Assembly: GCA_037131045.1 (NCBI GenBank)
Contig: JBAXRV010000003.1
Span: 1-52,805 of the forward strand
Length of the DNA stretch: 52,805 bases
Direction: 5' to 3'
Source of the DNA: Actinomycetes bacterium
GTDB taxonomy: Bacteria; Actinomycetota; Actinomycetes; S36-B12; UBA5976
Shown here: positions 4,389-30,700 of the stretch, one piece after another
Layout of the letters: each line of letters starts with the position of its first letter
Position numbering within the stretch: the stretch's first letter is position 1
Program-made: the position numbers and the translations under genes
Notes under the pieces: model-generated
Told to the model about the DNA's origin: nothing
The model's input: only the letters and a program-made list of their open reading frames with translations
Database searches by the model: none

Positions 4389-4449
4389 AGGAGTAAACCT
4401 ACGGCACAGAGTAATCGTGCGGTTCACATGGGGTTATTGCACAAATGAA

Positions 4450-4480: not shown

Positions 4481-4503
4481 TTGCTCTGGAAGGGGAAGTT
4501 TTT

Positions 4504-5436: not shown

Positions 5437-5546
5437 GGTCAGTCCTTTCACAGCGAAAGTTGCTATGACTCCACTGTGAACCTGAAAACCAGTAATGCCA
5501 ACCAAAAACCAGGCAATCTGGTCATTATTGGACCGTGGCTAGCGAA

Positions 5547-5568
5547 CTTTGGATAAACCTTGGATAAA
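5547..5568. repeat. tandem direct repeat, 2 x C-N-TTGGATAAA with 11-bp period
   Basis: CTTTGGATAAA (5547-5557) is followed directly by CCTTGGATAAA (5558-5568). It lies between the prenyl synthase stop and the secreted-protein start. Confidence 0.5.
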
Positions 5569-5583
5569 GTCCCCCGCCAGTGC

Positions 5584-6561
5584 CTAAATGCTGCGACTTT
5601 CCACGCTGTCGCATAACACAACCAAAGCACTTTTGGCTGGGCAGTCCGGCAACCCTGAAAGAAGGTTTCGGGCCTTATCGCTCCATTGGCGTAATACCGA
5701 ACGAGCCTCATCCATCGCGGGGTGTGCGCGCAGCGCAGTTAACGCGTGCGCATGTTCGGCATCGTCAACCAAAGGTTTACTGAGTAGCTCTCGTAAGTAA
5801 GTATCGGTTGCAGAATCCGCCAGCGCCAAAAGAACGGGCAAAGTCTTAATGCCTTCCCGCAAATCAGTACCAGGCGTTTTTCCTGAGACCGTTGATTCAA
5901 TGTCAAGTAGGTCATCACTTAGTTGGAAAGCAATCCCGATACTTTCGCCAAATTCAGCAAGCCGATCAGTTAACTCGGATGACACTCCACTCATCATCGC
6001 GCCGTAACGAGCAGATGCTGAAATAAGCGAACCTGTTTTGTCTGCAAGGACTTCTAAGTGATGTGTGACTGGATCTTCGCCGTCAACTGGACCAACCGTT
6101 TCACGTAGTTGACCAATGACAAGGCGTTCAAATGTTTCAGCCTGAACTCGAACAGCATCAGGACCAAGGTCAGCCAATAAGGCAGATGATCGTGCAAATA
6201 AAAAATCACCGCTGAGAATCGCCACAGTGTTTCCCCATCGGCTGTTTGCTGACTCTGAACCACGACGAACAGTTGCTTCATCCATAACATCGTCGTGATA
6301 CAGCGTTGCCAAGTGAGTTAGTTCGACCACGACCGCAGCCGGAACAATCCCTGGGGCGTTAGCATCTCCGAACTGGGCAGCTAACAACACAAGTAGCGGA
6401 CGAAACCGCTTGCCACCGGCTTCTACAAGGTGTCGTGCTGTGACATCAGCAAGTTGGTAGTCGCTTCGGATTTGCGTACGAAGGCGTGCTTCTACTTGCG
6501 CTAACCCTTGCATCATCTCGGATTCAAGGTCAGACAAGTCTGGTGGAAACAAGACCGTCAC
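5584..6561 (-). CDS. trans-polyprenyl diphosphate synthase (menaquinone side chain; hepta/nonaprenyl type)
   Basis: 325 aa. Both Asp-rich motifs are present (LYHDDVMDE, QLSDDLLD). It lies 31 nt after nuoN on the same strand. Confidence 0.9.
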   Translation of the reverse strand: MTVLFPPDLSDLESEMMQGLAQVEARLRTQIRSDYQLADVTARHLVEAGGKRFRPLLVLLAAQFGDANAPGIVPAAVVVELTHLATLYHDDVMDEATVRRGSESANSRWGNTVAILSGDFLFARSSALLADLGPDAVRVQAETFERLVIGQLRETVGPVDGEDPVTHHLEVLADKTGSLISASARYGAMMSGVSSELTDRLAEFGESIGIAFQLSDDLLDIESTVSGKTPGTDLREGIKTLPVLLALADSATDTYLRELLSKPLVDDAEHAHALTALRAHPAMDEARSVLRQWSDKARNLLSGLPDCPAKSALVVLCDSVESRSI

Positions 6562-6592
6562 GAAAAATCAACTTTCTCTTTGGCTGCACGTT

Positions 6593-8161
6593 CTAGCGAA
6601 CGAACAAGCCTGCGTGTATGACTGCATCAATAATTGGTTGCGGCACAACGCCAACTAAAAGAGTCACTGCTGTACATACTGCCACTGCCACGACTGTAAA
6701 TGCGCTCGGAATAACCACATCCGCAGTCGAATGAGTAACTGGCGAGAAGAACATCAACACAATCACGCGAGCATAGAAGAAGGCAGCAATCGCACTCGCG
6801 ACCACAGCGACAATTACTAATGGTGTAGCGCCCCCGTCAACAGCAGCGGTAAAAACTGCAAACTTCGCAGTAAACCCGCTTGTTAGCGGTATGCCCGCGA
6901 GCGCAAGAAGGTACAACCCAAAAACCGAAGCTACAAGCGGTGATTTTTTGCCCAGCCCGGACCATTGCGAAAGGTGATTGGCTTCACCGCTCGAATCGCG
7001 CACGAGCGACACAATTGCAAAGGCACCAACTGTTGTAAAACCGTAAGCGAAGAGATAAAGCAATCCACTTGCTAGACCCCGTGGAGTTGTCGAAATCACT
7101 GCCAGCAAAATAAAACCACTATGCGCAACTGATGAATAGGCAAGCATGCGCTTAATGTCCGACTGTGTGACGGCTAAAACCGAACCCACGATCATTGTCA
7201 AGATTGCGATAACCCAAAGCATTGGTCGCCAATCCCAACGCATGCCAGCAAACGCAACGTAGAAGACTCGGAACAACGCACCAAAGGCCGAAATCTTGGT
7301 GGCAGCGGCCATAAATGCTGTGAGCGGAGTTGGTGAACCTTGATACACATCGGGAGTCCATTGATGAAAAGGAACTGCGCCAACTTTAAAGAGCAACCCG
7401 ACTGTGATCATTCCAATTCCAGTCAAGATCAGGCCATCTTGGCTGGTGTTTGCCATGGCTTGAGCAATTACCCCAAATGTGACAGAGCCCGACACTGCAT
7501 AAATGAGGGCAGCACCAAATAAGAAAAACGCACTTGAAAAAGCACCAAGAACGAAATACTTCAAAGCGGCTTCTTGACTCAGAAGTCGCCGACGTCGAGC
7601 CATACCCGCTAGCAAATAAAGCGGCAGCGAGAAAACTTCCAGAGCCACAAACACAGTGAGCAGGTCGTTAGAAACTGGGAACATCACCATGCCGGCAAGA
7701 GCAAATAGGAACAGCGGCCAAATCTCAGTTTGGAACCAGCCCTGCGAAGTAAACTGCCGTTCGTCTTCACTACCCGGCAACGTTGATGAACGAGCCGCAA
7801 AAGCATCACCCTGTGGGTCAACACTTCGCTCAGCAAAAAGCAGCGCTCCAACAAATCCAACGAGTAGCAGAGTTCCTTGCAAGAACAAACCTGGACCATC
7901 AATTGCAACTGAACCACTGGCTGCAATTTGGCGAAGTCCGTGACCTTGTCCGGCGTTAACACTGAGCCCACCCGAAAGCGGTGCAGTTGCATTGATCACT
8001 ACATAACCAAGTGACGCGATGACACTTCCAAACACCACAGGTAGCTGAAGTGAGCGTCGGGAAGTTCTTGGAGCAAAAGCCTCAATCATGATCGAGATGA
8101 CTCCCGCAGTTAACAAAATGATGATCGGCGCAAGCGCTTGGTATTCAATCGAACTTCTCAC
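6593..8161 (-). CDS. nuoN: NADH-quinone oxidoreductase subunit N
   Basis: 522-aa polytopic antiporter-like protein. Last gene of the nuo run, with a 4-nt overlap with nuoM. Confidence 0.9.
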   Translation of the reverse strand: MRSSIEYQALAPIIILLTAGVISIMIEAFAPRTSRRSLQLPVVFGSVIASLGYVVINATAPLSGGLSVNAGQGHGLRQIAASGSVAIDGPGLFLQGTLLLVGFVGALLFAERSVDPQGDAFAARSSTLPGSEDERQFTSQGWFQTEIWPLFLFALAGMVMFPVSNDLLTVFVALEVFSLPLYLLAGMARRRRLLSQEAALKYFVLGAFSSAFFLFGAALIYAVSGSVTFGVIAQAMANTSQDGLILTGIGMITVGLLFKVGAVPFHQWTPDVYQGSPTPLTAFMAAATKISAFGALFRVFYVAFAGMRWDWRPMLWVIAILTMIVGSVLAVTQSDIKRMLAYSSVAHSGFILLAVISTTPRGLASGLLYLFAYGFTTVGAFAIVSLVRDSSGEANHLSQWSGLGKKSPLVASVFGLYLLALAGIPLTSGFTAKFAVFTAAVDGGATPLVIVAVVASAIAAFFYARVIVLMFFSPVTHSTADVVIPSAFTVVAVAVCTAVTLLVGVVPQPIIDAVIHAGLFVR

Positions 8162-9687
8162 AGCCCGCTCCCTTCTGCACTTGGCGTATCGGGAATTGGA
8201 TCAGTCACGCCCACCGTAGTTTGCACCTGAGTGACAACTGGTTTGATGATATTCAGCGCAACTTGCGGGAAGACGCCAAGGGCAATAATCGCAGCCAAAA
8301 TTGGAGCTACTGCAATTAACTCTCGCGTTGAAATCTCCGATACTGTGCCCGTTACTTCATCACTTGGTTCGCCAGTAATTACCCGTTGGTACAGCCACAG
8401 AATATAAAATGCCGCAAGCACGATACCGAGAGTTGAAATAATCGCAATACCTTGGAACACCGAGAAGGTTCCGACAAGCACTAAGAACTCAGAGACGAAC
8501 GACGACATACCTGGAAGCGCAAGCGATGACAGTCCGGAAATCAGGAAGACTCCAGCAAGCATCGGCGCGACTTTGTTCACTCCACCGAAATCTGAAATCT
8601 TCTTTGATCCGCGACGAGATGACAAGAATCCCACAACCAGGAAAAGGGCGCCGGTTGAGAAGCCATGGTTCACCATGTAGAACGACGAGCCGGCTAGGCC
8701 CTGCGAGGTCATAACAAAAATTCCCAGCACAATAAAACCGAAGTGCGAAATTGACGAAAATGCGACCAGACGCATCATGTCGGTTTGACCAATAGCAAGA
8801 AGTGCGCCGTAGAAAATACTGATAACGGCCAGCACGATAATCACCGGTGCAAAGTAGTGACTTGCATCTGGGAAAATTGGAAGCAGGTAGCGAATCATTC
8901 CAAAGGTGCCGACCTTATCGAGCACTCCAACTAAAAGTGTGGCTGTCCCTGGTCTTGCTTCGCTGGCTGCATCAGGTAGCCACGTATGGAATGGAACCAT
9001 GGGCGCCTTCACAGCAAAGGCAAAGAAGAATCCTAGGAAAAGCATCTTTTGCGTTGCTGGATCCATGTGCAGCGTAGTGAGCACGGAATAGTCGAACGTG
9101 CCTTGACCAAGTACTCGACCCGAGACAACGTAAAGCCCAATGAGCGATGCCAACATGAAGAGGCCACCGACAAGTGAATACAGCAAGAACTTCATCGCAG
9201 CATATGCGCGCTGTGGACCACCAAACCGCCCAATAAGGAAGTAGACCGGAATGAGCATCGCCTCAAAGAACACGTAGAACAAGAACAAATCTGTGGCGGC
9301 AAAGACACCAATCATGAATACTTCGAGTGCCATGATCAGAGCGAAGAATTCTTTCACTGAACCCCGCGACGAATCTTCGGCATCCCACCAACCAGCAATG
9401 ATCACAAGTGGAACCAAAATTGTTGCCATAGCAATTAACAGGCCAGAGATGCCATCAATTCCTAAGCTCCATGAAATTCCAAATGACGGAATCCAATCGT
9501 GCTTTTCCGAATATTGCAGGCCGCCATTGCTGTTATCCAGACCAAGAGTCAAGTAGATGGCAAATGCTGCAGTAACGAGGGGCACAACGAGTGCAACTTG
9601 CTTGGCGAGTGTTTCTATAGCTTGAGGCAACAGAGCAATCGCAACAGCGCCTACGAGTGGCAGCAACATGAGTGTGGTGAGCAACAT
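8158..9687 (-). CDS. nuoM: NADH-quinone oxidoreductase subunit M
   Basis: 509-aa antiporter-like protein (motif VPFHTWLPDA), in the expected operon position. Confidence 0.92.
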   Translation of the reverse strand: MLLTTLMLLPLVGAVAIALLPQAIETLAKQVALVVPLVTAAFAIYLTLGLDNSNGGLQYSEKHDWIPSFGISWSLGIDGISGLLIAMATILVPLVIIAGWWDAEDSSRGSVKEFFALIMALEVFMIGVFAATDLFLFYVFFEAMLIPVYFLIGRFGGPQRAYAAMKFLLYSLVGGLFMLASLIGLYVVSGRVLGQGTFDYSVLTTLHMDPATQKMLFLGFFFAFAVKAPMVPFHTWLPDAASEARPGTATLLVGVLDKVGTFGMIRYLLPIFPDASHYFAPVIIVLAVISIFYGALLAIGQTDMMRLVAFSSISHFGFIVLGIFVMTSQGLAGSSFYMVNHGFSTGALFLVVGFLSSRRGSKKISDFGGVNKVAPMLAGVFLISGLSSLALPGMSSFVSEFLVLVGTFSVFQGIAIISTLGIVLAAFYILWLYQRVITGEPSDEVTGTVSEISTRELIAVAPILAAIIALGVFPQVALNIIKPVVTQVQTTVGVTDPIPDTPSAEGSGL

Positions 9688-9689
9688 GA

Positions 9690-11549
9690 TTAGAGCCTCA
9701 CTAGTAGAAGAATCACAGCGATCAAGACCGCGCCGCCCAGCATTGTTGCCGCATAAGAACGAGCAAAACCGTTTTGAAGTTTGCGACCTTGAGAGGAAAC
9801 GCCAGCGATGACCGAAGCAAGACCAACAATGGACCCATCAACGGCTTTGCTGTCAAACCACACCAGTGAGCGGGTCAGGTACTGACCGGGGCGCATAAAG
9901 ATTGCTTCGTTAAGCGCATCACCATAAGCATCAGCACGAGCCGCGCGAGTCAACAGTCGCACATTTGATGGAGCAACCAGCGGCACCGGACGTCGCCCGT
10001 ACTTGAACCAGGCGTAACCGGCGCCTAAGAGCACCACGCCTAAGGTCACAGGAATCAACACGGTGTTCGACACTTCTTTTGCTGGATCACCATGACCCAC
10101 AACGGGTTCAAGCCACGCGTCAATGTTGCCGATAAATTTCAAAGCCATTCCGCCGAACACTGAACCTACTGCAAGCACAATCATGGGCACTGTCATCGTG
10201 GATGGCGATTCATGAGGATGCACATCGTCCTGCCAACGCGCTTCGCCAAAGAAAGTCATCGTCATCATGCGAGTCATGTAGAACGCTGTGACACCCGCAC
10301 CAATCAGTGTTGCTAGGCCCACAATGAAGTTCTGCCCAAAAGCAGCACTAATAATTTCGTCCTTTGACCAGAATCCCGCAAATGGTGGGATGCCGATAAT
10401 CGCTAGAAAGCCAAGACCAAATGTTGCGTAAGTAATTTTCATAACATTGCGAAGCGCGCCATAGTGCCGCATATTCACATCGTCATGCACTCCATGCATG
10501 ACCGATCCTGCTCCGAGGAAGAGCCCAGCCTTGAACATGCCGTGAGTTAACAAGTGGAAAATAGCGAATGCATAACCGACTGGTCCAAGGCCGGCAGCCA
10601 AAATCATGTAACCGATTTGACTCATTGTGGAACCGGCAAGACCTTTCTTGATGTCGTCTTTCGCAGTTCCGATGAAAGCACCAAGCAGTAGCGTGATTGC
10701 ACCAATGACAACCACCGCAGTGCGTGCAGTCGATGACAGATCAAAAATCGCATGAGCTCGAGTGATCAGGTAAACGCCAGCGGTCACCATGGTCGCCGCG
10801 TGAATCAGCGCTGATACTGGAGTTGGGCCTTCCATCGCATCAAGGAGCCACGATTGCAACGGGAACTGTGCACTCTTTCCGCAAGCAGCAAGCAGTAGTG
10901 CAAGACCAATCCAAGTCACTGAAGTACTTGATGCCTTGCCAGCTGACGCAGCGACACCATCGAAAGTGACCGTGCCAAAAGTTGTGAACATTAACATCAC
11001 TGCAAGCGACAAACCGACGTCACCAACACGGTTCACGACGAATGCTTTCTTGCCCGCAACTGCCGCCGACGGCTTGTGCTGCCAGAACGAAATCAACAAG
11101 TACGAAGCAAGGCCGACACCTTCCCAGCCCACATAGAGCAAAAAGTAGTTGTCAGCCAAGACCAATAACAACATCGCAGCGATAAAGAGATTCAGGTAAG
11201 CAAAAAACTTTCGACGGTTCGCATCATGTTCCATGTAACCGATGGAATAGATGTGAATGAGAGTTCCTACACCCGTAATCAAAAGCACAAATGCCATCGA
11301 TAGCTGATCGATGTGAAGCGCAAACGGAACTTGAAATGAACCAACATTAATCCAGTCGAACAAATGCTGATTAACAGCGCGCTCTTCCGCGGGCCGCCCG
11401 AGCATAGAAACGAAAGTTCCAAGGCCGACAAAAAAGGCGCTTGCCGACATAGTCACGGCAAATAAATGCCCCCACGTGTTTGTGCGACGTCCACCGATTA
11501 GGAGAACTGTGGCTCCTAGTAGTGGCAACCCAATGAGTGCTGCAGTCAT
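9690..11549 (-). CDS. nuoL: NADH-quinone oxidoreductase subunit L
   Basis: 619-aa antiporter-like protein with a long C-terminal extension (lateral helix), in the expected operon position. Confidence 0.92.
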
Positions 11550-11556
11550 GATTCCT

Positions 11557-11856
11557 CTAGTACTTCAACAGGTTAGCTTCGTCGATAGAAGCCGAGCGAC
11601 GGGTACGGAAAATTGTCACGATGATAGCGAGACCAACTACAACTTCAGCGGCAGCAACAACCATCACAAAGAATGCAACGACCTGGCCATCGAGTGTCCC
11701 AGTGATCCGAGACGCGGCAGCAAAAGCCAAGTTTGCAGCGTTGAGCATCATTTCAACACTCATAAACACAATGATTGCGTTCCGGCGCACGAGCACTCCA
11801 AACGCGCCAATCGTAAAAAGGATTCCAGCTAAGACCAGGTAGTTATTCGGATTCAC
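11557..11856 (-). CDS. nuoK: NADH-quinone oxidoreductase subunit K
   Basis: 99 aa with 3 TM segments, placed between nuoJ and nuoL. Confidence 0.92.
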
Positions 11857-12569
11857 GAGGTCACTTCCTTAACGCCATCATCTGGGTTGGATTGAAACTG
11901 TGTGGGTAACGAAGCCTGTGCTGGCGTTCCATCAGGCAACAAGGCAGGAGTGTCCACTGAATTGCTGCGGGCAAGTACGCCAGGGTTTGGCAGTGGAGTC
12001 ACTTGACCAGAACGGGTGCGCTCACGTGAAAGCTCACTTTGAGTTTTGCGCGGTGCCCATCGTTCGCGATGCGCCAAAACCATTGCACCCAAAACCGCTG
12101 TGATGAGTAAGGCAGAAGTTGCTTCGAATGCGAGCAAGTATCGACCAAAAATAAGATGAGCCAGACCTTGTACGTTTCCGCCGTAACCGATGTTTTCATT
12201 GACTAGGCCGATAACCGTTGGGGACGCAGTCGCTGTGATTCCGACAATGATGAGCACACCAAAAGCCAAACCAAGAACAATCGCAATGGCACGTTGCCCC
12301 TTGATGGTTTCAATGAGTGAGTCCGATGAATCAACACCAACAATCATCAGCACAAACAGAAACAGCATCATCACAGCACCGGTGTAGACCACGATCTGCG
12401 TGGTTGCAAGGAATGGCGCTTCGAGCATGAAATACAAAATCGCGAGATTAACCATTGCGAAAGCAACCCACAGCGCACTGTGAACCGCCTTACGAGAAAC
12501 CACAAGCCCTAGAGCACCGACAACTGAGAAGATGGCGGTGACCCAAAAAACTACGGATTCACCGTTCAC
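11853..12569 (-). CDS. nuoJ: NADH-quinone oxidoreductase subunit J
   Basis: 238 aa with TM segments and a hydrophilic C-terminal tail. 4-nt overlaps on both sides. Confidence 0.9.
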
Positions 12570-13108
12570 TTGTCACCTACCGAGTTAGCCGCGGGAGATG
12601 ATGTCACTTTGCCTTCGTAATAATCCTGCTCAGTCATGCCTGGCGCCATCGGATGAGGAGCTTCGAGCATTCCACCGAGTAGTGGGGCAAGCAGATCGTC
12701 TTTGGTGTAAATAAGTTTCTCTCGCGAATTGTCAGCTAATTCGTATTCGTTTGTCATTGTGAGGGCGCGAGTGGGGCAAGCCTCAATACATAAGCCACAC
12801 AAAATGCATCGCAAATAATTAATTTGGTAAACACGCCCGTAACGCTCACCAGGTGAGAATCGCTCTTCGTCAGTGTTGTCTGCACCTTCAACCAAAATTG
12901 CATCGGCTGGACATGCCCACGCACACAATTCACAACCTACGCATTTTTCTAAACCATCTGGGTGACGGTTGAGTTGATGGCGGCCATGGAAGCGCGGCTT
13001 CGGTGGAAACTTATCGCGCTCTTCTGGATATTGCTCGGTTGTTACCTTCTTAAACATTGATAAGAAGGTGACTCCAAAGCCACGAACGATTTGCGGCAAC
13101 TGTGGCAT
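12566..13108 (-). CDS. nuoI: NADH-quinone oxidoreductase subunit I
   Basis: 180 aa with [12 protein letters not shown] and [12 protein letters not shown] (clusters N6a/N6b). Confidence 0.95.
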
Positions 13109-14424
13109 TACTGCTCCTCCCCAACTTCGATACTGGGTACGGTGAGTGGACGATGACGCGAAGGCTGCGCTTGTTGATCTGGCATTGGTGGTACCGGAAA
13201 ACCGCCAGCAAAAGGGTCGAACTCTTCGCTAGCCAACAACTCTTGGCGCTCGGCTTCAAGTGCTTCTGCTTTGCCAGTACGAAGTTCATATACGTATGAA
13301 ATACCGACACCAATAACTAAGACAACCGCTGCTGCAATCATCAAACTACGGGTATCAAAATTGCTGTGGTTCTTTAGCTGACGAGCAGTAGCAACAATCA
13401 TGATCCATACGATCGAAACTGGAATGAGCACTTTCCAGCCAAACTTCATGAATTGGTCATAGCGCAAACGTGGAAGAGTGCCGCGAAGCCAAATGAAGAC
13501 GAACAAGAATGCAAAAATCTTTCCAAAGAACCACAGCATTGGCCACCAACCGGTGTTGGCTTGGCTCCAGAGCGAAATTGGATACGGTGCTCGCCAACCA
13601 CCAAGGAACAATGTCGTTGCCATAGCGGAGACGGTCACCATGTTGACGTACTCAGCTAGGAAGAACAGCGCGAACTTCAGCGAAGAATATTCAGTATGGA
13701 AACCGCCAACAAGTTCACCTTCGGCTTCTGGTAGATCAAAAGGTGCACGGTTTGTTTCGCCAACCATGGCAGTTGTATAAATCACAAACGAAGGTAAGAG
13801 CAACACGATGTACCACAGGTGTTCTTGTCCGGCGACAATTTGTGACGTCGACATTGATGACGCGTACATGAAGACTGCAACGAACGAAAGGCCCATCGCG
13901 ATTTCGTAGCTAATCATCTGGGCACTGGAACGCAAGCCACCAAGCAGTGGATACGTTGAGCCTGATGCCCAACCTGCTAGAACAATTCCGTAAATTCCCA
14001 CCGAAGCAATGGCAAGCACATAGAGAACAGATACTGGGAAGTCTGTGAGTTGTAACGGTGTGACGTGCCCGAGAATCGATACTTCAGGACCGAGCGGAAT
14101 TACCGCAAATGTGAGAAACGCTGTTGTTGCTGAAATGACAGGTGCAATCCAGTACACCGCCAAGTGAACGCCCACTGGAATAATTTCTTCCTTGAGCGCT
14201 AACTTGATGCCATCCATAAGTGACTGCAGCAAACCGAATGGGCCAACACGGTTAGGGCCTATACGCATTTGCATTCGTCCTACAACGCGACGCTCTGCCC
14301 AAATCGTCAACAACGTCATGAGCACCATGATTACGAAGATGCCGAGCACCTTAATCAGTACAACGCTAATTGGATCTTGCCCAAAGATTCCTAAGTCACC
14401 TTGAGCGCCAGTTCGGATGTTCAT
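13108..14424 (-). CDS. nuoH: NADH-quinone oxidoreductase subunit H
   Basis: 438 aa. Contains the NuoH/ND1 segment [23 protein letters not shown] plus an actinobacterial-style C-terminal extension. Confidence 0.95.
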
Positions 14425-16640
14425 GACTCACCTCCGGAAACGTTAACGACTGTTCCTGATGGCAAGTTCAAACAAGCCCCTTCGCTATTGGCAGGAATCC
14501 AGACAACACCATCAGCCATACCTGCAGTTTCAATCACAGGTGCAACTGCCTTGTCGCCACAACATTCCACAGTGGCCATCGCACCATCAACAAGTTTGAG
14601 TTGGCGAGCCGTCTGCGGGCTCACGCGAATTACAGCAACACGTGAGGTCGACGCCAAATATGGTTCACCGTCTTGCAATGTACCCAGGTCAAGCAAGTGA
14701 TGCCACGACGACAGAACAGCCTGACCAGCACCAACGGATTCAGCCGCTGACTTTGCTACTGAGATTTCTGGCTTATTAGCTGACAACCAAAAATCATTGA
14801 GTGATAGTGCGCTTCCCATTTCACGTGCGATTTCGCCAAGCACGTCGGCATCGCTCATTGAGCCTGCCACTGGAGTAGCAACCTTGAAGGAACGGTCGCG
14901 GCCTTCCCAGTTTCGGAAGGTTCCAGACTTTTCTGTCACCACAGCAACAGGAAGGACAACATCTGCAACTGCAGTGACATCGGTATGGCGTGTTTCAAGT
15001 GAGACAACAAACTGCGCCCGTTGCGCTGCTGCTACAAGATCACCCTGGACATCGTTTGCCGAAACGCCTGCGATAACAAGACCCTTAACGTGTGCTCCCG
15101 CATCAGCAATGATTGCGTCGGTGTCGCGACCGTTAATTGGTAGCAGACCTGCATCAAGTGCGCCACGATCGCCTGCACGTCGCGGGATCCACGCAATTCG
15201 TGCTTGGGTCGAAGCCGCGAGGTCAGCAATCGCCTTAAGCAAGCCTGGAGTTTGCGCGGCACGTTCACCAACCACGATGACGCTACCTGGTTCGCTCAGG
15301 TGTGCTGCCGCGCCATTAACTGCGGCAACTTCTTCACGTGGACCAGCGGCAAGAAGAGTTCCCTTCATCTTGGCCAATCCAGCAGTTGTGTATGGGGCTA
15401 CGGAGTACACCCTTGTGCGGTGTGACAAGGCAGCCTTGCGAAGTCGTAAGAACACAATCGGGGATTCATCTTCAGGATCGATGCCGACGAGAAGAACAGC
15501 GGGCGCAGTTTCTAAATCACCGTAAGTGACATCAAGACCGTGGCCTGCAACGTGCTGCGCCAAAAATGCTGTTTCTTCGCTGCTGACAGCGCGTGCCCGG
15601 AAATCCACATCGCGAGTACCAATGACATCGCGGGCAAATGAGTTGTAAGCGAGGGCATCTTCGTAAGTAATACGCCCACCCGTTAATACACCTGTTGCAG
15701 TGCCGGTTGCTTTGAGTCCTGCAGCCACTGCGCGCAGTGCTTCTGGCCACGATGCAGGAACGAGATTTCCATCAGCATCGCGAACTAGCGGATGAGTCAG
15801 CCGACCTTCCCGCAAGTATGGGAAAGCGAAACGACCCTTATCGCAATTCCATTCCTCGTTGACTTCAGGTGCATCCCACGCAAGACGACGCATGACAGTG
15901 CCACGACGTACGTCAGTGCGAAGTGCGCAACCGCTTGCACAGTGCTCACATGCACTTGGGGTACTTACTAAATCGAAAGGACGCGAACGGAATCGGTACT
16001 TGGCCGACGTCAATGCACCAACGGGACAAATTTGAATGGTGTTGCCGCTGAAGTATGAATCAAATGGTTGGTCTGCAGAAATACCAACTTGTTGCTTAGC
16101 GCCTCGTTCTAGCAAATCAATAAAGTGATCTCCAGCGATTTCTTCAGCAAACCGGGTGCAGCGAGCGCACGACACACAACGCTCACGATCAAGAAGTACT
16201 TGGGCACTGACGTTGATTGGTTTTGGAAAAGTGCGTTTGGTGCCATCGAATCGAGTTTCGCCACGGCCAGCAGTCATCGCTTGATTTTGCAGCGGGCATT
16301 CGCCACCCTTGTCGCAAATTGGACAATCCAACGGATGATTAATGAGCAAAAACTCCATCACACCAGATTGCGCTTTTTGCGCCATCTCGCTTGTGTGTTG
16401 TGTCTTAACAACCATGCCCTCGGCAACAGGAATGGCGCATGCCGGTTGAGGTTTCCCTTGACCTTCAATTTCCACTAAACACATACGGCACGCTGCAACA
16501 GGCGAAAGCAGTGGATGATCACAGAACCGCGGAATCGCGGTACCGAGCATTTCAGCAACCCGGATGATGAGCGTGCCAGCAGGAACTTCTACTGCGACAC
16601 CATCAACAGTGAGGTTTACGGTTTGCGTTGTAACAGTCAT
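14421..16640 (-). CDS. nuoG: NADH-quinone oxidoreductase subunit G
   Basis: 739 aa. N-terminal 2Fe-2S ([15 protein letters not shown]), [14 protein letters not shown] and [10 protein letters not shown] motifs, followed by a molybdopterin-like domain. Confidence 0.95.
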
Positions 16641-23869: not shown

Positions 23870-25060
23870 TTATGCAGTAACGGGTATCGATTCCCAGCCA
23901 CGCAAAACAAAAGTCGGACGCTGTACTGGTGTACCAGCAAGCTTTAAAGTCGCAAACTCCTCAAACAACATTGGCAGTGATGTGAGCATCTCTAGTCGCG
24001 CTAAGGGAGCACCAATACAAAAATGAATCCCTGCGCCAAAAGCAATGTGCGGGTTGGTTTCGCGAGTGATGTCGAAGGTATCAACATTGTCAAAGACTTC
24101 GCCGTCACGATTAGCTGAACCCAGCAGTGCTGCAGCCCGTTGGCCAACCTTGATAACAGTGTTTCCAATCTGAGTGTCTTGCGTAGCTGTGCGATCAAAA
24201 AGGTGCAGTGGCGAGTCAAAGCGCATGAACTCTTCTAATGCTGTTGCGCTGTGCTTGCGAGGTTGTAGCGCCAATAGTTCATGCTGCTCAGGGTTACGGA
24301 ACAACGAAACTATTCCATTTCCAAAACCATTCACAGACGCTTCATGGCCTGCATTAAGTAGCAGCACGCACATCGCAATCAGTTCATGCTCATTGAGCCG
24401 CTCGCCTTGCTCTTCAACTTCTACTAACGCCGTGATCAAATCATCTTGCGGGTCTACCTTGCGTTGAGCTGCCAGTAGTGCGATGTATTCGCTGAAGTCC
24501 CTGCCGGCTGCTTGAGCAGCAAGTTCCTGCTCGCGGGTGCGACCGAACTCATACATTTTGACAATGTCCTGAGACCAGCGACGAAGATCAGCGCCTTTGT
24601 CACGTGGCACACCAAGTAAATCGGCAATGACCAATACCGGAAGTGGCTCGGCATAGTCAGCAAGAACGTCGAATGCACCGTCGCTGGCAAGTCTGCTGCG
24701 CGCGCCAGCAAGAAGCTCCTCACATAACTGTGTGATGTTCGGTTGCAAAGCACTGATCCGACCCGGAGTGAAAGCCTTTTGTACTAACGAACGAAGCCGA
24801 GTGTGCTTAGGCGGTTCACTATCCAAAATGGAATCAGAATGCAGCCAGTTAAAAATGTCCCATTCATCCTGCGGCTGTAATGGGTTATAAATCCGTCCCA
24901 TGGTCTTGGCTCGTAGAACCGCATTTGCTGTGGCATGAGTTGGTGCCAACCACATGTCAAGTTGCTCACTCCATACAAGTTCTCCTGATTCGCGCAATTG
25001 CGAATACAAAGGATATGGATTTGCGACCACATCTGGGTCCTGCATGTTGATGTCGACCAT
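23870..25060 (-). CDS. cytochrome P450
   Basis: 396 aa. Heme loop FGAGIHFCIGAPLAR, ExxR (EFMR) and I-helix LLLNAGHEASVN. Confidence 0.92.
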   Translation of the reverse strand: MVDINMQDPDVVANPYPLYSQLRESGELVWSEQLDMWLAPTHATANAVLRAKTMGRIYNPLQPQDEWDIFNWLHSDSILDSEPPKHTRLRSLVQKAFTPGRISALQPNITQLCEELLAGARSRLASDGAFDVLADYAEPLPVLVIADLLGVPRDKGADLRRWSQDIVKMYEFGRTREQELAAQAAGRDFSEYIALLAAQRKVDPQDDLITALVEVEEQGERLNEHELIAMCVLLLNAGHEASVNGFGNGIVSLFRNPEQHELLALQPRKHSATALEEFMRFDSPLHLFDRTATQDTQIGNTVIKVGQRAAALLGSANRDGEVFDNVDTFDITRETNPHIAFGAGIHFCIGAPLARLEMLTSLPMLFEEFATLKLAGTPVQRPTFVLRGWESIPVTA

Positions 25061-25088
25061 AGGTCTATTGAACTACTGTGCAGAGTAA

Positions 25089-25508
25089 CTAGTGCGACGT
25101 GGGAGGGTTTTCTTCTTTGTAACCCATCGACTTGATGGGTAGCGTGATGATGTATAACAAACCAATAAAGAGGCAGATTCCGATCAAAATCCAACGCACC
25201 CGGGAAAGTTCACCAGGACCTAGGTAAATGATGCCCGCCATTGCGCCCTCGATCAGAATTGAGAGCACCGCCACGCTACGAAATGTGGGATCGGCTGCGT
25301 TGCGCGACGTGGTCCCCTGGTTAATTGACAAGGCAATCATGAGAACACCCATGAACATGAAGAGCCATTGCACATTATCTGTGGGGGCAAGCGTGAGTTT
25401 ACTAAGTGCTTCAAGCGGTTTAGCCAAAGAGTAGACGCCCGCAATAAAGAACAAAATTGCGGAGATCACCATGACGAGCCGGCTGAGTCGATACCGTGAG
25501 TTGCGCAT
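25089..25508 (-). CDS. hypothetical small membrane protein (about 4 TM)
   Basis: 139-aa hydrophobic ORF 28 nt downstream of the P450 on the same strand. No motif recognised. Confidence 0.55.
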   Translation of the reverse strand: MRNSRYRLSRLVMVISAILFFIAGVYSLAKPLEALSKLTLAPTDNVQWLFMFMGVLMIALSINQGTTSRNAADPTFRSVAVLSILIEGAMAGIIYLGPGELSRVRWILIGICLFIGLLYIITLPIKSMGYKEENPPTSH

Positions 25509-25581: not shown

Positions 25582-28572
25582 ATGAACTCAGACGACGCTG
25601 CTGCACTTGTTCTCGCCCACTATGGATTATCGGTGACCTGTACACCTTTAGCGGGCGAACGAGACCTCAACTTCAAATGCATCACTAATCCAAGCAGCCC
25701 CGATAACAGTGCCGAAGAGTACATATTTAAAGTGCAAGCGCAGCAAGAATCTAAGTTGATCGCTGCGCAGAATCAGTTACTAGAGTTTCTAGAATCCGAT
25801 CGAGGTCATGCAGCTGTATCTGGGGTGACATTAACTGAACCACGTTTAATCTCTGCGGTAAATGGTGAGCGGTTAGTAAATCTGGACGACAATCGAATTG
25901 GTCGACTACTTACGTGGGTTCCAGGAACAATGTGGTCTGACGAACAAACCCACAATGACATCCAGCTCAGCTCACTTGGGATGGCCGTGGCACAACTGGA
26001 CAAAGCACTTGCGCAATTTCCTGCGCCTCAGGACTTTGCATCGCACAGCTTTGGTTGGAACGTATTACAGACCGAGAATCTTGTTTCGCACATCGAATTA
26101 ATCGCCGATGAGTCAGTGCGGGCAGTGGTGCGCACGATTCTGACGGATTTCGTGGAAAACGTGTTACCGATTTTAAAAGCGATGCCTCACCAAGTCATTC
26201 ACAACGACGGCAACGATAACAACATCGTGATGTCAGGCAACAACGTCACTTCTCTGATTGACTTCGGCGACATCATTGTGGCCCCCCGGATTTGTGGATT
26301 AGCTGTGGCCTGCGCATATGGGATTGAGCATGACAACGATCCCATTTTTGGATTATTGCCACTCGTTGCGGGCTATCACCAAATCGCTCCCCTGCGCGCT
26401 GAGGAACTGGAAATTTTGTTCCCACTCATCAAGACTCGGATAGCAACAAGCATCGTGATGGCTGCCATACAAAGTGCGGCAGCGCCTGGAAATGAGTACC
26501 TCCTCATCAGCCAAGCCAAATTCAATCGGCTCGTGATGCTCCTTGCCGCAACATCGCACGATCACAGCCACTTTAGATTCCGAAATGCCTGCGGCTACGA
26601 AGGTTGTCCAACAAGTCGCGCTGTGCGACATTGGCTACAAACAGGTATCCCACGTATTGCCGATGTAGTGATGCCACCACTTGAACAGACCGCCAAGATT
26701 TGGTTTGACTGGTCCATCACTGGACACGGCGCGCCTAAAACGGCTGATGAGATAGCAGCAGCGATGCGCGATGCTGGTGCGGCACTTGCAATCGGAAACT
26801 TCTGCGAAGACCGAAATGTCTACGAAGGTGACAACTACGAAGTTGCAAGCGCTACTCGTCGAACAGTTCACTTAGGCGTTGATCTATTTGCACCTGCAGG
26901 AACGCCAGTGTATGCAGCACTTGATGGAGTGGTTGAACTCTTTAACGATAATTTTGCGCCTTTGGATTATGGACCAGTCATTGTGTTGCGACACGAAACT
27001 GGTGACGGAATTCCGTTCTGGACGTTGTATGGACACTTGTCACGACCATCACTTGTTCCGCTGTTCATCGGCAAGCCCATTGCAGCTGGGGATCAAATCG
27101 CGACGATGGGCGAAGAGTTTGAAAATGTTGGTTGGGCACCACACACCCACTTCCAACTGTTAACGTCGCTCGTCGATATGGGTGTCGATGTATACGGAGT
27201 CGCGCCACTCAATGAATTGCCGCTGTGGCGCAGCATCTCGCCAAATCCAAACATCGTGCTGCGTCTGGCCGAAGGTACTGACTCGCATGCTCACTTGGCT
27301 GCGACAACCTTGGCGCAAGAACGCAAAGTGGTGTTGTCTCGGGCCTTGAGTTTGAATTTCCGCGACCCAATTGAAATTGTTCGAGGTGAAGGCGCATACC
27401 TGTTTGATAACAGCGGCCGACCATTCCTGGATCTCGTTAACAATGTTGCACATGTTGGACATAGCCATCCTCGCGTCGTGCGAGCTGGCCAAGAGCAAAT
27501 GGCTTTGCTGAACACAAACACCCGGTATCTGAATCAACACGCAATTGAATACGCCCGATCGTTAGCGTCAACCTTGCCTGATCCACTCAATGTTGTGTTC
27601 TTTGTAAATAGCGGAAGTGAAGCAAACGACTTAGCCCTTCGACTTGCTCGCACACATACCAAAGCGCACGGAATGGTAGTTCTCGACCACGCCTACCACG
27701 GACACATCACAAGCATCATCGACATCAGCCCCTATAAGTTCGCACGTAAAGGTGGAACTGGTCGTCCTGATCATGTTCGTGTCGTGCCAACACCCGATAG
27801 TTACAAAGGACTGCACCGCGGCGCAGACGCTGGAATAAAGTACGCAGCTGAATTCGACACACAACTTGCTGACCTTGGAATGCCGTTGTGCGCATTCATT
27901 AGCGAGTCAATCGTCAGTACTGCTGGACAAATTACGTTGGCCGATGGATTTTTGCCGCTTGCCTACAAGAATGCGCGCGCTGCTGGCGGTGTGTGTATTG
28001 CTGATGAAGTGCAAATTGGTATGGGTCGCGTCGGTGAGCACTTCTGGGGCTTTGAGCTACATGGTGTTATTCCAGACATTGTCACTATTGGAAAGCCATT
28101 GGGTAACGGACATCCCATTGCCGCTGTTGTGACCACTCCTGAAATTGCAACGTCATTTATCAATGGGATGGAATACTTCAATACTTTTGGTGGTAATCCA
28201 GTTTCAGCCGCAATCGGACAGGCTGTACTTGACGTTGTCACCGAACAAGGTCTGCAAGCAAACGCTCGACACATGGGCAACTATTTGATGGACAACGTGC
28301 GCACATTGAGCCACTCCATTGATGCCATCGGTGACGTGCGAGGAAGTGGGCTGTTTATCGGAGTTGAACTTGTCACAGATCCGGCAACACAAACTCCGGC
28401 AACACAGCTCACTGATGACTTAATCCAGTTTGCTAAAGAACGTGGCATCTTCTTATCGTGCGATGGACCGGACAACAATGTGTTAAAGATCAAGCCACCG
28501 CTCGTAGTTTCCCAGAGCGACATTGACTTGTTTTTATCAGTATTTGAAGATGGGCTTAAGTCGTTACGATAA
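25582..28572 (+). CDS. tri-domain fusion: APH/hydroxylysine-kinase-like phosphotransferase + M23 (LytM) metallopeptidase domain + class-III aminotransferase fold of the AGXT2L (phospho-lyase) type
   Basis: 996 aa in a single frame.
- Kinase domain: HNDGNDNN (HxDxxxxN) and IDFGD.
- M23 domain: HLGVD (HxxxD), YGHL and HTHFQL (HxH).
- PLP domain: [34 protein letters not shown] and [22 protein letters not shown]. This closely matches the AGXT2L1/2 segment as I remember it. Confidence 0.85.
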
Positions 28573-29511: not shown

Positions 29512-30642
29512 TCAACGCACTTGCGTGATGCGATCAAGTATCTGGTCGTGCGGCAAGGCAAATGAGGTATTACCATCACGTCCGACCATCGTGTCATTGT
29601 TGACGAGTGCATTAACTACTGCTTCTTCAACACATTGAACAACCGCTGTGAAGAATGGGTCCATGAAGTTCCACGGTACGAAATGCAAAGTGTGTAACGC
29701 TTCATCGTTCGATGAATTAACAGGGAAACCACTGGCTAGTTCACCGGCATCAGCCGTAGAAAAGGCCAAGAAAATATCACCGCTAAAGTGACCGCCAGCT
29801 GTACCAGTTCGGGCTAGACCCAACGGCACTCGTCTGGCAAGTGCGCGACATTGGTCAGGAAGCATAGGCGCGTTCGTGGCAACCACTGCGATGACAGAAC
29901 CAGCACCTGCAGGAACTACGCGCACTCGATCGTTATTGATCCATGTGGTCTGTCCCATAGGGAACGGCACATCGAGATCCTTCATCGAGACACCTGCAAT
30001 TCGAAGTTCATCGCGGTCGCCGAAATTGGCTTGCAAGAACACACCAACCACATAGTCCTGCCCACCAAAACTCACCACGCGCGACGAAGTGCCGTTGCCG
30101 CCTTTGTATCCGTAACAATTCATCCCAGTTCCACCACCGTGCGAACCTTCTAAGACTGCGCCTGTTGATGCCGACTCGATGGCCGCAATTGCATGATCTG
30201 TTGTCACATGAGGACCGTTAATGTCGTTGAGGTAGCCATCCCAGGTTTCAGCAACCACAGGTAGCAACCATTCGATGGCCGCTTCAGGATGATGCTTCTT
30301 TGTCCATTCAATTACTCCCCGATGAACTGTTCCAACAGCATGTGTGTTGGTAATCATCACAGGACCACTTAAGCCACCAGTCTCAGTAATCCAATGAGTA
30401 CCAGTCATTTCGCCATTGCCGTTCAAGGAATAGATTCCGGCAGGCACAGCATCACGCACTCGTTGCGGACCAACAGGAAGTATGGCGGTAACACCGGTGC
30501 GCACCGGGCCACCATCAATAACAAGCGGTCCGTCGCCGGAAATGATTGTGCTCATTCCAACCTGGACACCAGGAACATCTGTAATGGAATTCAACTGGGC
30601 AGGAGTTCCATCAAATGGGATTCCTAAGTCGCGAGCCCTCAT
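29512..30642 (-). CDS. P1/DmpA family (S58) aminopeptidase-like Ntn hydrolase
   Basis: N-terminus RARDLGIPFDG.P...NSITDVPGV.VG and an autoprocessing-region-like segment GYKGGNGTSS. ATG at 30642 has the SD AAGGAG; the longest ORF reaches 30657. Confidence 0.8.
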   Translation of the reverse strand: MRARDLGIPFDGTPAQLNSITDVPGVQVGMSTIISGDGPLVIDGGPVRTGVTAILPVGPQRVRDAVPAGIYSLNGNGEMTGTHWITETGGLSGPVMITNTHAVGTVHRGVIEWTKKHHPEAAIEWLLPVVAETWDGYLNDINGPHVTTDHAIAAIESASTGAVLEGSHGGGTGMNCYGYKGGNGTSSRVVSFGGQDYVVGVFLQANFGDRDELRIAGVSMKDLDVPFPMGQTTWINNDRVRVVPAGAGSVIAVVATNAPMLPDQCRALARRVPLGLARTGTAGGHFSGDIFLAFSTADAGELASGFPVNSSNDEALHTLHFVPWNFMDPFFTAVVQCVEEAVVNALVNNDTMVGRDGNTSFALPHDQILDRITQVR

Positions 30643-30700
30643 GTGCTCTCCTTGCATCTATTCACACATGGCATATGAATAGTACAAACTTACTCTCGCC

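What the first reader, a model, noticed from the sequence alone, without database searches (positions are those of the whole stretch)
25582..28572. 996-aa single-chain kinase / M23 metallopeptidase / AGXT2L-like PLP enzyme
One uninterrupted ORF joins three domains.
- An APH / hydroxylysine-kinase-like phosphotransferase, with HxDxxxxN and DFG-like motifs intact.
- A LytM/M23 domain with apparently intact Zn ligands (HLGVD, HTHFQL).
- A class-III aminotransferase-fold domain. Its [19 protein letters not shown]...[22 protein letters not shown] segment looks like the AGXT2L1/AGXT2L2 ammonia-phospho-lyases rather than a classical transaminase.

Established knowledge: hydroxylysine kinase plus 5-phosphohydroxylysine phospho-lyase, and phosphoethanolamine phospho-lyase, form a kinase-then-lyase route for amino alcohols. 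Bacterial kinase-lyase fusions helped identify the human enzymes.

Two things remain unexplained. The cytoplasmic M23 peptidase domain (no signal peptide) sits between the other two domains, and the substrate in an actinobacterium is unknown. The protein may release and then degrade an amino-alcohol or peptide-linked amine.
Basis: partly seen in the sequence, partly recalled or inferred. Interest (0 to 1): 0.6.

Follow-up and report, generated by a model that had tools for sequence, protein, structure and literature searches.

The report
Known kinase-M23-phospho-lyase fusion enzyme
This is a real, intact 996-residue cytoplasmic enzyme that joins a small-molecule kinase, a zinc-peptidase domain and a phosphate-eliminating vitamin-B6 lyase; it is an ordinary member of a very widespread, catalogued but untested family, and only the job of its middle domain is still open.

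Summary

It is not an assembly artefact. It matches NCBIfam NF004799 (PRK06148, "hypothetical protein") end to end above the cut-off. At least 125 distinct 50%-identity clusters share the architecture, in many bacterial phyla and in Asgard archaea.

The PLP domain is a phospho-lyase, not a transaminase. Its best solved relatives are human ETNPPL (E 2e-130, TM 0.95) and the Arthrobacter phospho-lyase A1RDF1.

The M23 domain has the canonical Zn/catalytic pentad H430, D434, H485, H521, H523 and an M23 fold (Z 13). It has no signal peptide.

Across the family the pentad is intact in 82% of clusters. It was nevertheless lost about 13 times independently, and M23-less kinase-lyase forms are scattered through the tree. 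The M23 domain is therefore a strongly conserved but dispensable accessory.

There is no conserved neighbour. Scattered contexts elsewhere point to collagen-type hydroxylysine and lysine catabolism, but this window's context is uninformative.

This scan has already reported the same family on other DNA (at least 21 findings, 54 genomes). Verdict: a new member of a known kind, of low to moderate interest.

The parts
25582..28572 (+). Whole 996-codon gene (stop codon included). It is monocistronic: divergent from a 139-aa 4-TM gene 73 nt upstream, and convergent with a PD-(D/E)XK nuclease gene 6 nt downstream.
   Evidence: NF004799 full-length match of 1149.4 bits against a cut-off of 1128
25582..26586 (+). 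APH-fold small-molecule kinase domain (residues 1-335). Catalytic residues are H207, D209 and N214 (codons 26200-26223) and D227 of IDFGD (26260-26262). The putative ATP-binding lysine is K50.
   Evidence: Pfam APH. D209, N214 and D227 are kept in 125/125 family clusters and K50 in 120/125. The nearest solved structure is only homoserine kinase II, 2ppq, E 0.002.
26587..26856 (+). Family-specific linker and N-terminal extension of the M23 domain (residues 336-425). It contains the invariant residues G405, R411 and Y414.
   Evidence: alignment A3 of 70 genomes; confidently folded, pLDDT mostly above 80
26857..27171 (+). M23/LytM metallopeptidase domain (residues 426-530). Zn ligands are H430 (26869-26871), D434 (26881-26883) and H523 (27148-27150). 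Catalytic histidines are H485 (27034-27036) and H521 (27142-27144).
   Evidence: Pfam; PDB sequence alignment to StM23, LytM and ShyA; VIA-align Z 12-13 to EnvC, DipM, StM23, lysostaphin and LytM; pentad intact in 102/125 clusters and 69/69 genome homologues
27172..27351 (+). Connector between the M23 and PLP domains (residues 531-590). R581 is invariant.
27352..28569 (+). Class-III-fold PLP domain of the ETNPPL/PHYKPL phospho-lyase type (residues 591-996). The Schiff-base lysine is K838 (28093-28095). D808 and Q811 are the PLP-contacting residues.
   Evidence: Pfam Aminotran_3; human ETNPPL 6tor E 2e-130 and A1RDF1 5g4i E 2.7e-93; Foldseek TM 0.95, rmsd 1.3 A, 49% identity; K838 kept in 123/125 and D808 in 125/125 clusters

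Best explanation
The gene encodes a cytoplasmic, self-contained catabolic enzyme of the PRK06148 family.

Inferred mechanism:
- The N-terminal APH-fold kinase phosphorylates the hydroxyl of a vicinal amino alcohol.
- The C-terminal PLP domain binds the neighbouring free amine as an external aldimine. It then eliminates phosphate and, after hydrolysis of the enamine/imine, ammonia. The product is an aldehyde, as with human ETNPPL and PHYKPL.

The most likely substrate is 5-hydroxy-L-lysine or a close analogue (about 45%), which would give 2-aminoadipate semialdehyde. Ethanolamine is second (about 20%).

The central M23 domain keeps a complete zinc-hydrolase site. I think it is slightly more likely than not to be a working accessory hydrolase that frees the amino alcohol from a small peptide or amide conjugate. 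The alternative is that it is only a zinc-stabilised scaffold packed between the two catalytic domains.

Shown here: the architecture, the intact catalytic residues, the family membership, the phospho-lyase affinity of the PLP domain, the M23 fold and the cytoplasmic location. Inferred: every catalytic activity and the substrate.
For: Architecture and family:
- Three Pfam domains in the stated order, and a full-length NF004799 match above the cut-off.
- AF2 models the whole chain as one confident unit: mean pLDDT 94.5, pTM 0.89.

PLP domain:
- Human ETNPPL E 2e-130 and the phospho-lyase A1RDF1 E 2.7e-93. The next enzyme, dialkylglycine decarboxylase, scores 1.3e-56.
- Foldseek TM 0.95 and rmsd 1.3 A to 6tor.

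Catalytic residues across 125 clusters at 50% identity or less:
- Kinase D209, N214 and D227 are invariant.
- PLP D808 is invariant and K838 is kept in 123/125.

M23 domain:
- The pentad is intact in 102/125 clusters and in 69/69 genome homologues, including three archaeal ones.
- Mean identity to the query is 46.5%, against 29% for the kinase and 51% for the PLP domain.
- Fold Z is about 13.

Self-contained unit: no neighbour family is shared by more than 7 of 73 loci, and no Pfam family occurs in more than 2 of 46 co-directional adjacent genes.

Substrate hints from other lineages:
- In four Flavobacteriaceae loci the gene sits between a GH63-like glucosidase and a GH2 beta-galactosidase. 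Prolidase, an S37/S28 peptidase, an OCD-family gene and a Pro_racemase gene lie nearby.
- In locus L020 it lies in a run TPP enzyme, OCD, fusion, CoA-transferase III, beside ALDH and acyl-CoA dehydrogenase genes. Their best NCBIfam names are P6C dehydrogenase, succinate-glutarate CoA-transferase and P2C reductase, all below cut-off.
- A 32%-identical stand-alone kinase is labelled hydroxylysine kinase by JGI.
Against: - No member of this family has been assayed, as far as the searchable literature shows.
- The window's own context (P450, a 4-TM protein, a nuclease, DmpA, men genes) says nothing about substrate.
- The context hints come from 5 of about 73 loci, and the NCBIfam names in L020 are all sub-threshold.
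- The best solved relative of the PLP domain is the ethanolamine-phosphate enzyme, not PHYKPL. I could not obtain PHYKPL or HYKK sequences to compare.
- The M23 zinc ligands were lost in about 13 independent lineages.
- M23-less kinase-lyase forms arose at least 4 times, so the kinase-lyase chemistry does not need M23 catalysis.
Confidence: 0.8

Rival explanations
1. The enzyme is a B12-independent ethanolamine route. The kinase makes phosphoethanolamine and the lyase converts it to acetaldehyde, phosphate and ammonia, as human ETNPPL and Arthrobacter A1RDF1 do.
For: - The two closest solved relatives of the PLP domain are both phosphoethanolamine phospho-lyases.
- EutB, the ethanolamine ammonia-lyase subunit, was not found in this 90%-complete genome.
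- Ethanolamine is ubiquitous, which would fit the very broad taxonomic range.
Against: - The kinase domain hits Pfam APH, not the choline/ethanolamine kinase family.
- Its nearest labelled stand-alone relative is called hydroxylysine kinase.
- The only informative genomic contexts point to collagen-type sugars and hydroxyproline, or to lysine/glutarate catabolism.
- An M23 domain has no obvious role with ethanolamine.
Confidence: 0.2
2. The M23 domain is not an enzyme here. It is a rigid, zinc-stabilised spacer or oligomerisation module that positions the kinase relative to the dimeric PLP domain. Its 'catalytic' residues are kept only for folding.
For: - Zn-ligand loss needs 13 independent changes on the family tree while the domain itself is kept.
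- Kinase-lyase forms lacking M23 are scattered among three-domain forms, with at least 4 events forced by well-supported branches.
- pTM 0.89 implies tight, fixed packing of the three domains.
- The closest structural matches include the non-catalytic LytM domains of EnvC and DipM.
Against: - Non-catalytic LytM domains normally lose their ligands. Here all five residues are intact in 82% of clusters at 50% identity or less, and in 69/69 genomes from many phyla.
- The two catalytic histidines that do not bind zinc (H485, H521) are also kept.
- The domain is far better conserved than the kinase (46.5% against 29%).
- Additional invariant Arg, Tyr and Asn residues flank the site.
Confidence: 0.4
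3. The C-terminal domain is an ordinary omega-transaminase and the protein is not a kinase-lyase pair.
For: NCBIfam and source annotations call relatives 'aminotransferase class III-fold PLP enzyme'. All class-III enzymes share the same PLP residues.
Against: - The phospho-lyases outscore every transaminase, racemase and decarboxylase by more than 35 orders of magnitude for A1RDF1 and more than 70 for ETNPPL.
- In the PLP-domain tree, the genome's own class-III transaminases fall outside the family.
- The invariant fusion to a kinase makes sense only for a phosphorylated substrate.
Confidence: 0.03
4. The long ORF is an assembly or frameshift artefact joining two or three genes.
For: Split forms do exist in nature: APH+M23, M23+PLP, APH+PLP and PLP alone.
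Against: - Hundreds of independent full-length homologues of the same length and domain order exist.
- An intact syntenic copy is present in a same-genus genome.
- The curated full-length HMM aligns from residue 3 to 993 without a break.
Confidence: 0.01

Closest known systems
NCBIfam NF004799 (PRK06148, 'hypothetical protein') and its sister model NF004800 (PRK06149, 'aminotransferase')
   Same: Same length, same three domains in the same order. The alignment is end to end (residues 3-993 to profile positions 13-1009) at 1149.4 bits, above the curated cut-off of 1128.
   Different: Nothing architectural. The family itself has no assigned function. This copy scores only 632 bits on NF004800 (cut-off 973), so it belongs to the PRK06148 branch.
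Human ethanolamine-phosphate phospho-lyase ETNPPL/AGXT2L1 (PDB 6TOR) and its paralogue PHYKPL/AGXT2L2
   Same: The PLP domain is about 49% identical to ETNPPL on the structure-based alignment, with TM 0.95 and rmsd 1.3 A. The PLP lysine and aspartate align.
   Different: The animal enzymes are stand-alone proteins of about 450-500 aa with separate kinases. Here the lyase is the C-terminal third of a 996-aa chain. No PHYKPL sequence was available, so I could not place this domain relative to the two animal paralogues.
Arthrobacter aurescens TC1 phospho-lyase A1RDF1 (PDB 5G4I/5G4J)
   Same: A bacterial (actinobacterial) class-III-fold phospho-lyase. E 2.7e-93, TM 0.94, 39% identity.
   Different: A1RDF1 is a single-domain 446-aa protein without kinase or M23 domains. 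It is a more distant relative than human ETNPPL.
Vertebrate hydroxylysine kinase HYKK/AGPHD1
   Same: APH-fold small-molecule kinase with HxDxxxxN and DFG-type motifs. From memory of Veiga-da-Cunha et al. 2012, its function was inferred from bacterial fusions of this kind.
   Different: Orthology was not tested here because no HYKK sequence or structure was available. The only direct link is a JGI label on a 32%-identical stand-alone bacterial homologue.
M23/LytM peptidoglycan endopeptidases (LytM, lysostaphin, StM23, ShyA, MepM) and non-catalytic LytM domains (EnvC, DipM)
   Same: Same fold (Z 12-13, rmsd about 2.5 A over about 130 residues) and the same HxxxD / H / HxH pentad.
   Different: - Those proteins are secreted or periplasmic and act on, or regulate cleavage of, peptidoglycan.
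- This domain is internal to a cytoplasmic enzyme and has no signal peptide.
- It carries family-specific invariant residues R411, Y414, R427 and N515.
- It also occurs with an intact pentad in Asgard-type archaea.

Membership tests
NCBIfam NF004799 / PRK06148 | Whole-protein HMM score at or above the curated cut-off (1128 bits), with end-to-end alignment | tested here: met
   1149.4 bits; residues 3-993 align to profile positions 13-1009 of 1015. The genome search gave 1151.6 bits.
NCBIfam NF004799 / PRK06148 | Domain order APH, then Peptidase_M23, then Aminotran_3, in one chain of about 1000 aa | tested here: met
   Pfam coordinates 45-256, 429-527 and 597-990
ETNPPL/PHYKPL-type PLP phospho-lyases | Closer in sequence and structure to characterised phospho-lyases than to any class-III transaminase, racemase or decarboxylase | tested here: met
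   6tor E 2e-130 and 5g4i E 2.7e-93, against 1.3e-56 for the next enzyme; TM 0.95 and 0.94
ETNPPL/PHYKPL-type PLP phospho-lyases | PLP Schiff-base lysine and pyridine-N aspartate present | tested here: met
   K838 and D808 align with ETNPPL and are kept in 123/125 and 125/125 clusters
ETNPPL/PHYKPL-type PLP phospho-lyases | Catalyses 1,2-elimination of phosphate and ammonia from an O-phospho amino alcohol and does not transaminate | not testable with these tools
   Needs an enzyme assay
ETNPPL/PHYKPL-type PLP phospho-lyases | Assignment to the phosphoethanolamine (ETNPPL) or the 5-phosphohydroxylysine (PHYKPL) specificity group | not tested
   No PHYKPL sequence could be obtained. The stand-alone relatives returned were all bacterial and unnamed.
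Hydroxylysine kinase (HYKK/AGPHD1) family | APH-fold kinase with catalytic HxDxxxxN loop and DFG-type Mg-binding aspartate | tested here: met
   H207, D209, N214 and D227; Pfam APH
Hydroxylysine kinase (HYKK/AGPHD1) family | Orthology to animal HYKK rather than to other APH-fold kinases | tested here: inconclusive
   - Nearest solved structure is homoserine kinase II, at E 0.002 only.
- NCBIfam gives only weak homoserine-kinase hits.
- One 32%-identical stand-alone homologue is labelled hydroxylysine kinase by JGI.
Hydroxylysine kinase (HYKK/AGPHD1) family | Nucleotide-dependent phosphorylation of 5-hydroxy-L-lysine | not testable with these tools
   Needs an enzyme assay
Peptidase family M23 (LytM/lysostaphin type) | Zn ligands in HxxxD and HxH motifs, plus the two catalytic histidines | tested here: met
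   H430, D434, H523, H485 and H521 align with StM23 and LytM; Pfam 59.6 bits against a cut-off of 28.7
Peptidase family M23 (LytM/lysostaphin type) | M23 beta-sheet fold | tested here: met
   Domain model pLDDT 88.9. 27 solved chains reach Z of 8 or more, all M23/LytM; the best Z is 13.2.
Peptidase family M23 (LytM/lysostaphin type) | Exported enzyme acting on peptidoglycan cross-links | tested here: not met
   - No signal peptide or TM segment.
- The domain is internal, between two cytoplasmic enzyme domains.
- Intact copies occur in Thorarchaeota and Promethearchaeota MAGs.
Peptidase family M23 (LytM/lysostaphin type) | Zinc-dependent peptide-bond hydrolysis | not testable with these tools
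   Needs metal analysis and an activity assay

The most novel reading that the evidence does not exclude
The M23 domain is an active cytoplasmic zinc hydrolase that performs a first step, making the protein a three-step single-chain pathway.
1. It cleaves a small glycine-containing peptide or amide conjugate, for example a collagen-derived Gly-Hyl or Hyl-Gly fragment left after deglycosylation, and releases the free amino alcohol.
2. The kinase phosphorylates it.
3. The lyase deaminates and dephosphorylates it.

This would be the first M23 peptidase with an intracellular, non-peptidoglycan, metabolic substrate.
Probability: 0.25. Interest if true: 0.6.

Novelty: new member of a known kind. Interest (0 to 1): 0.3.

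Why it matters
As a finding, it matters little. The architecture is a curated NCBIfam family, it occurs in hundreds of species, and this scan has already reported it many times.

The family itself is still worth an experiment, for three reasons:
- It is a large, universally distributed, self-contained enzyme with no biochemical data.
- It is kept in a streamlined 1.76-Mb freshwater actinobacterial genome, so it probably handles a common environmental nitrogen source.
- Its strongly conserved cytoplasmic M23 zinc site has no known precedent.

Assigning its substrate would annotate thousands of genes at once. It could also reveal a bacterial route for hydroxylysine or a B12-independent route for ethanolamine.

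Tried and rejected
Tools and sources that were unavailable:
I derived neighbourhoods from 80 genome-contig loci with my own ORF calling instead.
- Veiga-da-Cunha et al. 2012 (JBC 287:7246; PMC3293546) is not held.
I could not measure the openness of the M23 cleft or the domain interfaces.

Searches that led nowhere:
- Literature searches for PRK06148/PRK06149, for M23 with hydroxylysine or phospho-lyase, and for Peptidase_M23 with aminotransferase found nothing relevant.
- A search for stand-alone PLP relatives, meant to bring in named ETNPPL/PHYKPL sequences, returned only unnamed bacterial proteins. An ETNPPL-versus-PHYKPL tree was therefore not possible.
- The ESM Atlas look-up of the middle region returned only generic M23 peptidoglycan-endopeptidase clusters.
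- The promoter/terminator scan found fewer sites than the shuffles give.

Ideas rejected:
- That members with a degenerate M23 site correspond to the sister family PRK06149. All the degenerate members I tested score best on PRK06148.
- That the window's neighbours (P450, 4-TM protein, nuclease, DmpA) are functional partners. The order is kept only in the closest same-genus genome and not in two others, and no neighbour family is conserved across the family.
- That the L020-type cluster recurs in L022. Only the CoA-transferase is convincingly similar, at 44.5%; the ACAD and TPP genes are 21-25% identical.
Full report
**The observation**

The window holds one uninterrupted ORF at 25582-28572 on the + strand. 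It has an ATG start and 996 codons.
- HNDGNDNN at 207-214 and IDFGD at 226-230 in the kinase.
- HLGVD at 430-434, YGHL at 483-486 and HTHFQ at 521-525 in M23.
- ADEVQ at 807 and TIGKP at 835 (Lys838) in the PLP domain.

The N-terminus has no basic or hydrophobic leader, and no segment reaches transmembrane hydrophobicity outside the buried kinase helices. The protein is therefore cytoplasmic.

The gene stands alone. It is divergent from a small 4-TM gene 73 nt upstream and convergent with a PD-(D/E)XK nuclease gene 6 nt downstream.

**Is it one gene?**

Yes. NCBIfam has a curated full-length model for exactly this architecture: NF004799 / PRK06148, 1015 positions, named only 'hypothetical protein'. 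The protein matches it from residue 3 to 993 at 1149 bits, above the 1128-bit cut-off.
- In the 5.8-billion-protein collection the candidate list saturated at 8000. The 120 best hits are almost all about 975-1000 aa with the same Pfam domains.
- In the 50%-identity representative library, at least 125 distinct clusters align end to end.
- A scan of species-representative genomes returned full-length copies at about 40% identity from many groups:
  - Actinomycetota, Acidobacteriota and Alpha-, Gamma- and Delta-proteobacteria (for example Ensifer adhaerens);
  - Chloroflexota, Planctomycetota, Gemmatimonadota and Bacteroidota;
  - MAGs labelled Thorarchaeota, Promethearchaeota and 'uncultured archaeon'.
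- In the window's own 1.76-Mb, 90%-complete genome the gene is single-copy.
- Seven of nine same-genus genomes carry it, and 26 of 101 genomes of the order.
- One same-genus genome keeps the order P450, 4-TM gene, fusion, nuclease, DmpA.

**The PLP domain**

Against all solved structures, the best sequence matches are human ethanolamine-phosphate phospho-lyase (6tor, E 2e-130) and the Arthrobacter phospho-lyase A1RDF1 (5g4i, E 2.7e-93). The next enzyme, dialkylglycine decarboxylase, is at 1.3e-56, and true transaminases score lower still.

The AF2 model of the whole chain is very confident (mean pLDDT 94.5, pTM 0.89). Its C-terminal domain superposes on 6tor with TM 0.95 and rmsd 1.3 A at 49% identity. 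K838 and D808 are essentially invariant across the family.

I could not decide between the ETNPPL and PHYKPL specificities. No PHYKPL sequence was obtainable, and the stand-alone relatives returned were all unnamed bacterial proteins.

**The kinase domain**

D209, N214 and D227 are invariant in 125 of 125 clusters. There is no close solved structure: the best is homoserine kinase II at E 0.002. NCBIfam offers only weak homoserine-kinase similarity. Stand-alone homologues of about 350 aa are about 30% identical, and one is labelled hydroxylysine kinase by JGI. Orthology to animal HYKK thus remains untested here.

**The M23 domain**

Sequence alignment to StM23, LytM, ShyA and others puts H430 and D434 on the HxxxD motif, H485 on the catalytic His of the 'YGHL' strand, and H521 and H523 on HxH. 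Folded alone, residues 336-590 give pLDDT 88.9. A Foldseek-independent search of 48,161 chains returns 27 matches at Z of 8 or more, all M23/LytM domains. The best have Z about 13: EnvC, DipM, StM23, lysostaphin and LytM.

Across the family:
- The pentad HDHHH is intact in 102 of 125 clusters and in 69 of 69 genome homologues, including the three archaeal ones.
- The domain is much better conserved than the kinase. Mean identity to the query is 46.5%, against 29% for the kinase and 51% for the PLP domain.
- An alignment of 70 genomes shows further invariant residues around the site: R411, Y414, R427, N515, Q525 and R581.
- On a tree built without the M23 columns, loss of a zinc ligand requires 13 independent changes. 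The degenerate members still belong to PRK06148, not to the sister model.
- A PLP-domain tree shows APH+PLP proteins of 750-800 aa, which lack M23 altogether, scattered among the three-domain forms. This needs 11 changes, at least 4 of them forced by well-supported branches.
- APH+M23 and M23+PLP split forms also exist.

The M23 domain is therefore under strong constraint in most lineages, yet the kinase-lyase core can do without its catalysis, or without the domain entirely. That pattern fits an accessory function. It does not distinguish a working hydrolase from a zinc-stabilised scaffold.

**Context and substrate**

I called ORFs in 80 loci with up to 10 kb of flank and clustered the neighbours. 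No neighbour family occurs in more than 7 of 73 loci. Among 46 co-directional, closely spaced adjacent genes, no Pfam family occurs more than twice. The protein is a self-contained unit.

Two minority contexts are suggestive.
- In four Flavobacteriaceae loci (Algicola, Tenacibaculum, Flagellimonas and an unnamed MAG) the gene is immediately preceded by a GH63/MGH1-like glucosidase. A GH2 beta-galactosidase follows, directly in three of them and after one intervening gene in L076.
  - In the Tenacibaculum and unnamed-MAG loci (L069, L076), a prolidase, an S37/S28 peptidase, an OCD-family reductase and a proline-racemase-family gene lie just upstream.
  - Collagen hydroxylysine carries Glc-Gal disaccharides (established knowledge), so this looks like a collagen-fragment salvage island. 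An earlier follow-up of this scan reached the same reading on other DNA.
- In locus L020 the fusion lies in the run TPP enzyme, OCD, fusion, CoA-transferase III, divergent from ALDH and acyl-CoA dehydrogenase genes.
  - L020 is a MAG whose aldehyde dehydrogenase is 75% identical to one in the window's genome.
  - The best NCBIfam names for these genes are L-piperidine-6-carboxylate dehydrogenase, succinate-glutarate CoA-transferase and pyrroline/piperideine-2-carboxylate reductase. All are below their cut-offs.
  - That set would carry 2-aminoadipate semialdehyde, the product expected from 5-phosphohydroxylysine, on to glutaryl-CoA. This is inference.

The window's genome keeps the DAO-ALDH / TPP trio and the CoA-transferase on other contigs, not next to the fusion. 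It has two proline-racemase-family genes and one OCD gene. EutB was not found.

I rate 5-hydroxylysine or a close analogue at about 45%, ethanolamine at about 20%, and other amino alcohols as the remainder.

**Comparison with what is known, and novelty**

The kinase-then-phospho-lyase logic is established for animals (HYKK plus PHYKPL, and ETNPPL). Two held papers cite the 2012 discovery as a comparative-genomics / gene-fusion case.

The three-domain architecture is catalogued (NF004799/NF004800) but I found no biochemical study of it in the searchable library. This scan has already reported the same family at least 21 times, with look-alikes in 54 genomes. Its follow-ups reached the same conclusions.

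The present gene is thus a new member of a known kind. What stays open is the family's substrate and the role of a strongly conserved cytoplasmic M23 zinc site, which also occurs in archaea that are not expected to have murein.

**Verdict**

The novelty is low and the interest is 0.3. The most novel reading not excluded is that M23 is an active intracellular hydrolase performing a first, substrate-releasing step. I give that about 25%.

Noticed in passing
L064, L069, L076, L098 (Flavobacteriaceae loci), about 1300-16200 in each locus: The fusion gene is immediately preceded by a GH63/MGH1-like glucosidase. A GH2 beta-galactosidase follows, directly in three loci and after one intervening gene in L076. 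In L069 and L076 a prolidase, an S37/S28 peptidase, an OCD-family reductase and a proline-racemase-family gene lie upstream. It looks like a collagen-fragment (glycosylated hydroxylysine plus hydroxyproline) salvage island.
   Followed up: partly
L020:451-14025 (MAG record titled Bifidobacterium breve ME-08apr19-276): The gene order is acyl-CoA dehydrogenase, a 387-aa gene and ALDH on one strand, then TPP enzyme, OCD, fusion and CoA-transferase III on the other. The best (sub-threshold) NCBIfam names point to a 2-aminoadipate-semialdehyde to glutaryl-CoA route. The record's species label looks doubtful, because its ALDH is 75% identical to that of the window's freshwater actinobacterium.
   Followed up: partly
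Own genome outside the window: G000:C23:5462-9799 (L103) and G000:C17:23632-24753 (L104): A DAO-family oxidase and an ALDH (best name P6C dehydrogenase, below cut-off) lie divergent from a TPP enzyme. A family-III CoA-transferase flanked by two GntR regulators lies on another contig. These are the counterparts of the L020 cluster but are unlinked to the fusion gene here.
   Followed up: partly
L031 (Thorarchaeota MAG), L042 (Promethearchaeota MAG), L068 (uncultured archaeon): Full-length three-domain homologues at about 40% identity, with the M23 pentad HDHHH intact, in archaeal MAGs. This indicates either inter-domain transfer or binning contamination. It was not resolved.
   Followed up: no
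G093:C6:72605-74260 and G093:C20:54018-56276 (same-genus genome): A same-genus genome shows a 556-aa APH+M23 open frame (profile positions 10-576) and, on another contig, a 753-aa frame covering positions 244-1010. This is either a natural split or duplication, or an assembly break.
   Followed up: no
window 23870-25508 (- strand): The cytochrome P450 gene and the small 139-aa 4-TM gene upstream of the fusion are kept together with it in one same-genus genome (L017; 73% and 45% identity). They are not found beside the fusion in two other same-genus genomes.
   Followed up: partly
window 29512-30657 (- strand): A DmpA/S58-type aminopeptidase gene lies two genes downstream on the opposite strand, behind an ECF sigma factor gene. 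I found no evidence linking it to the fusion beyond proximity.
   Followed up: no
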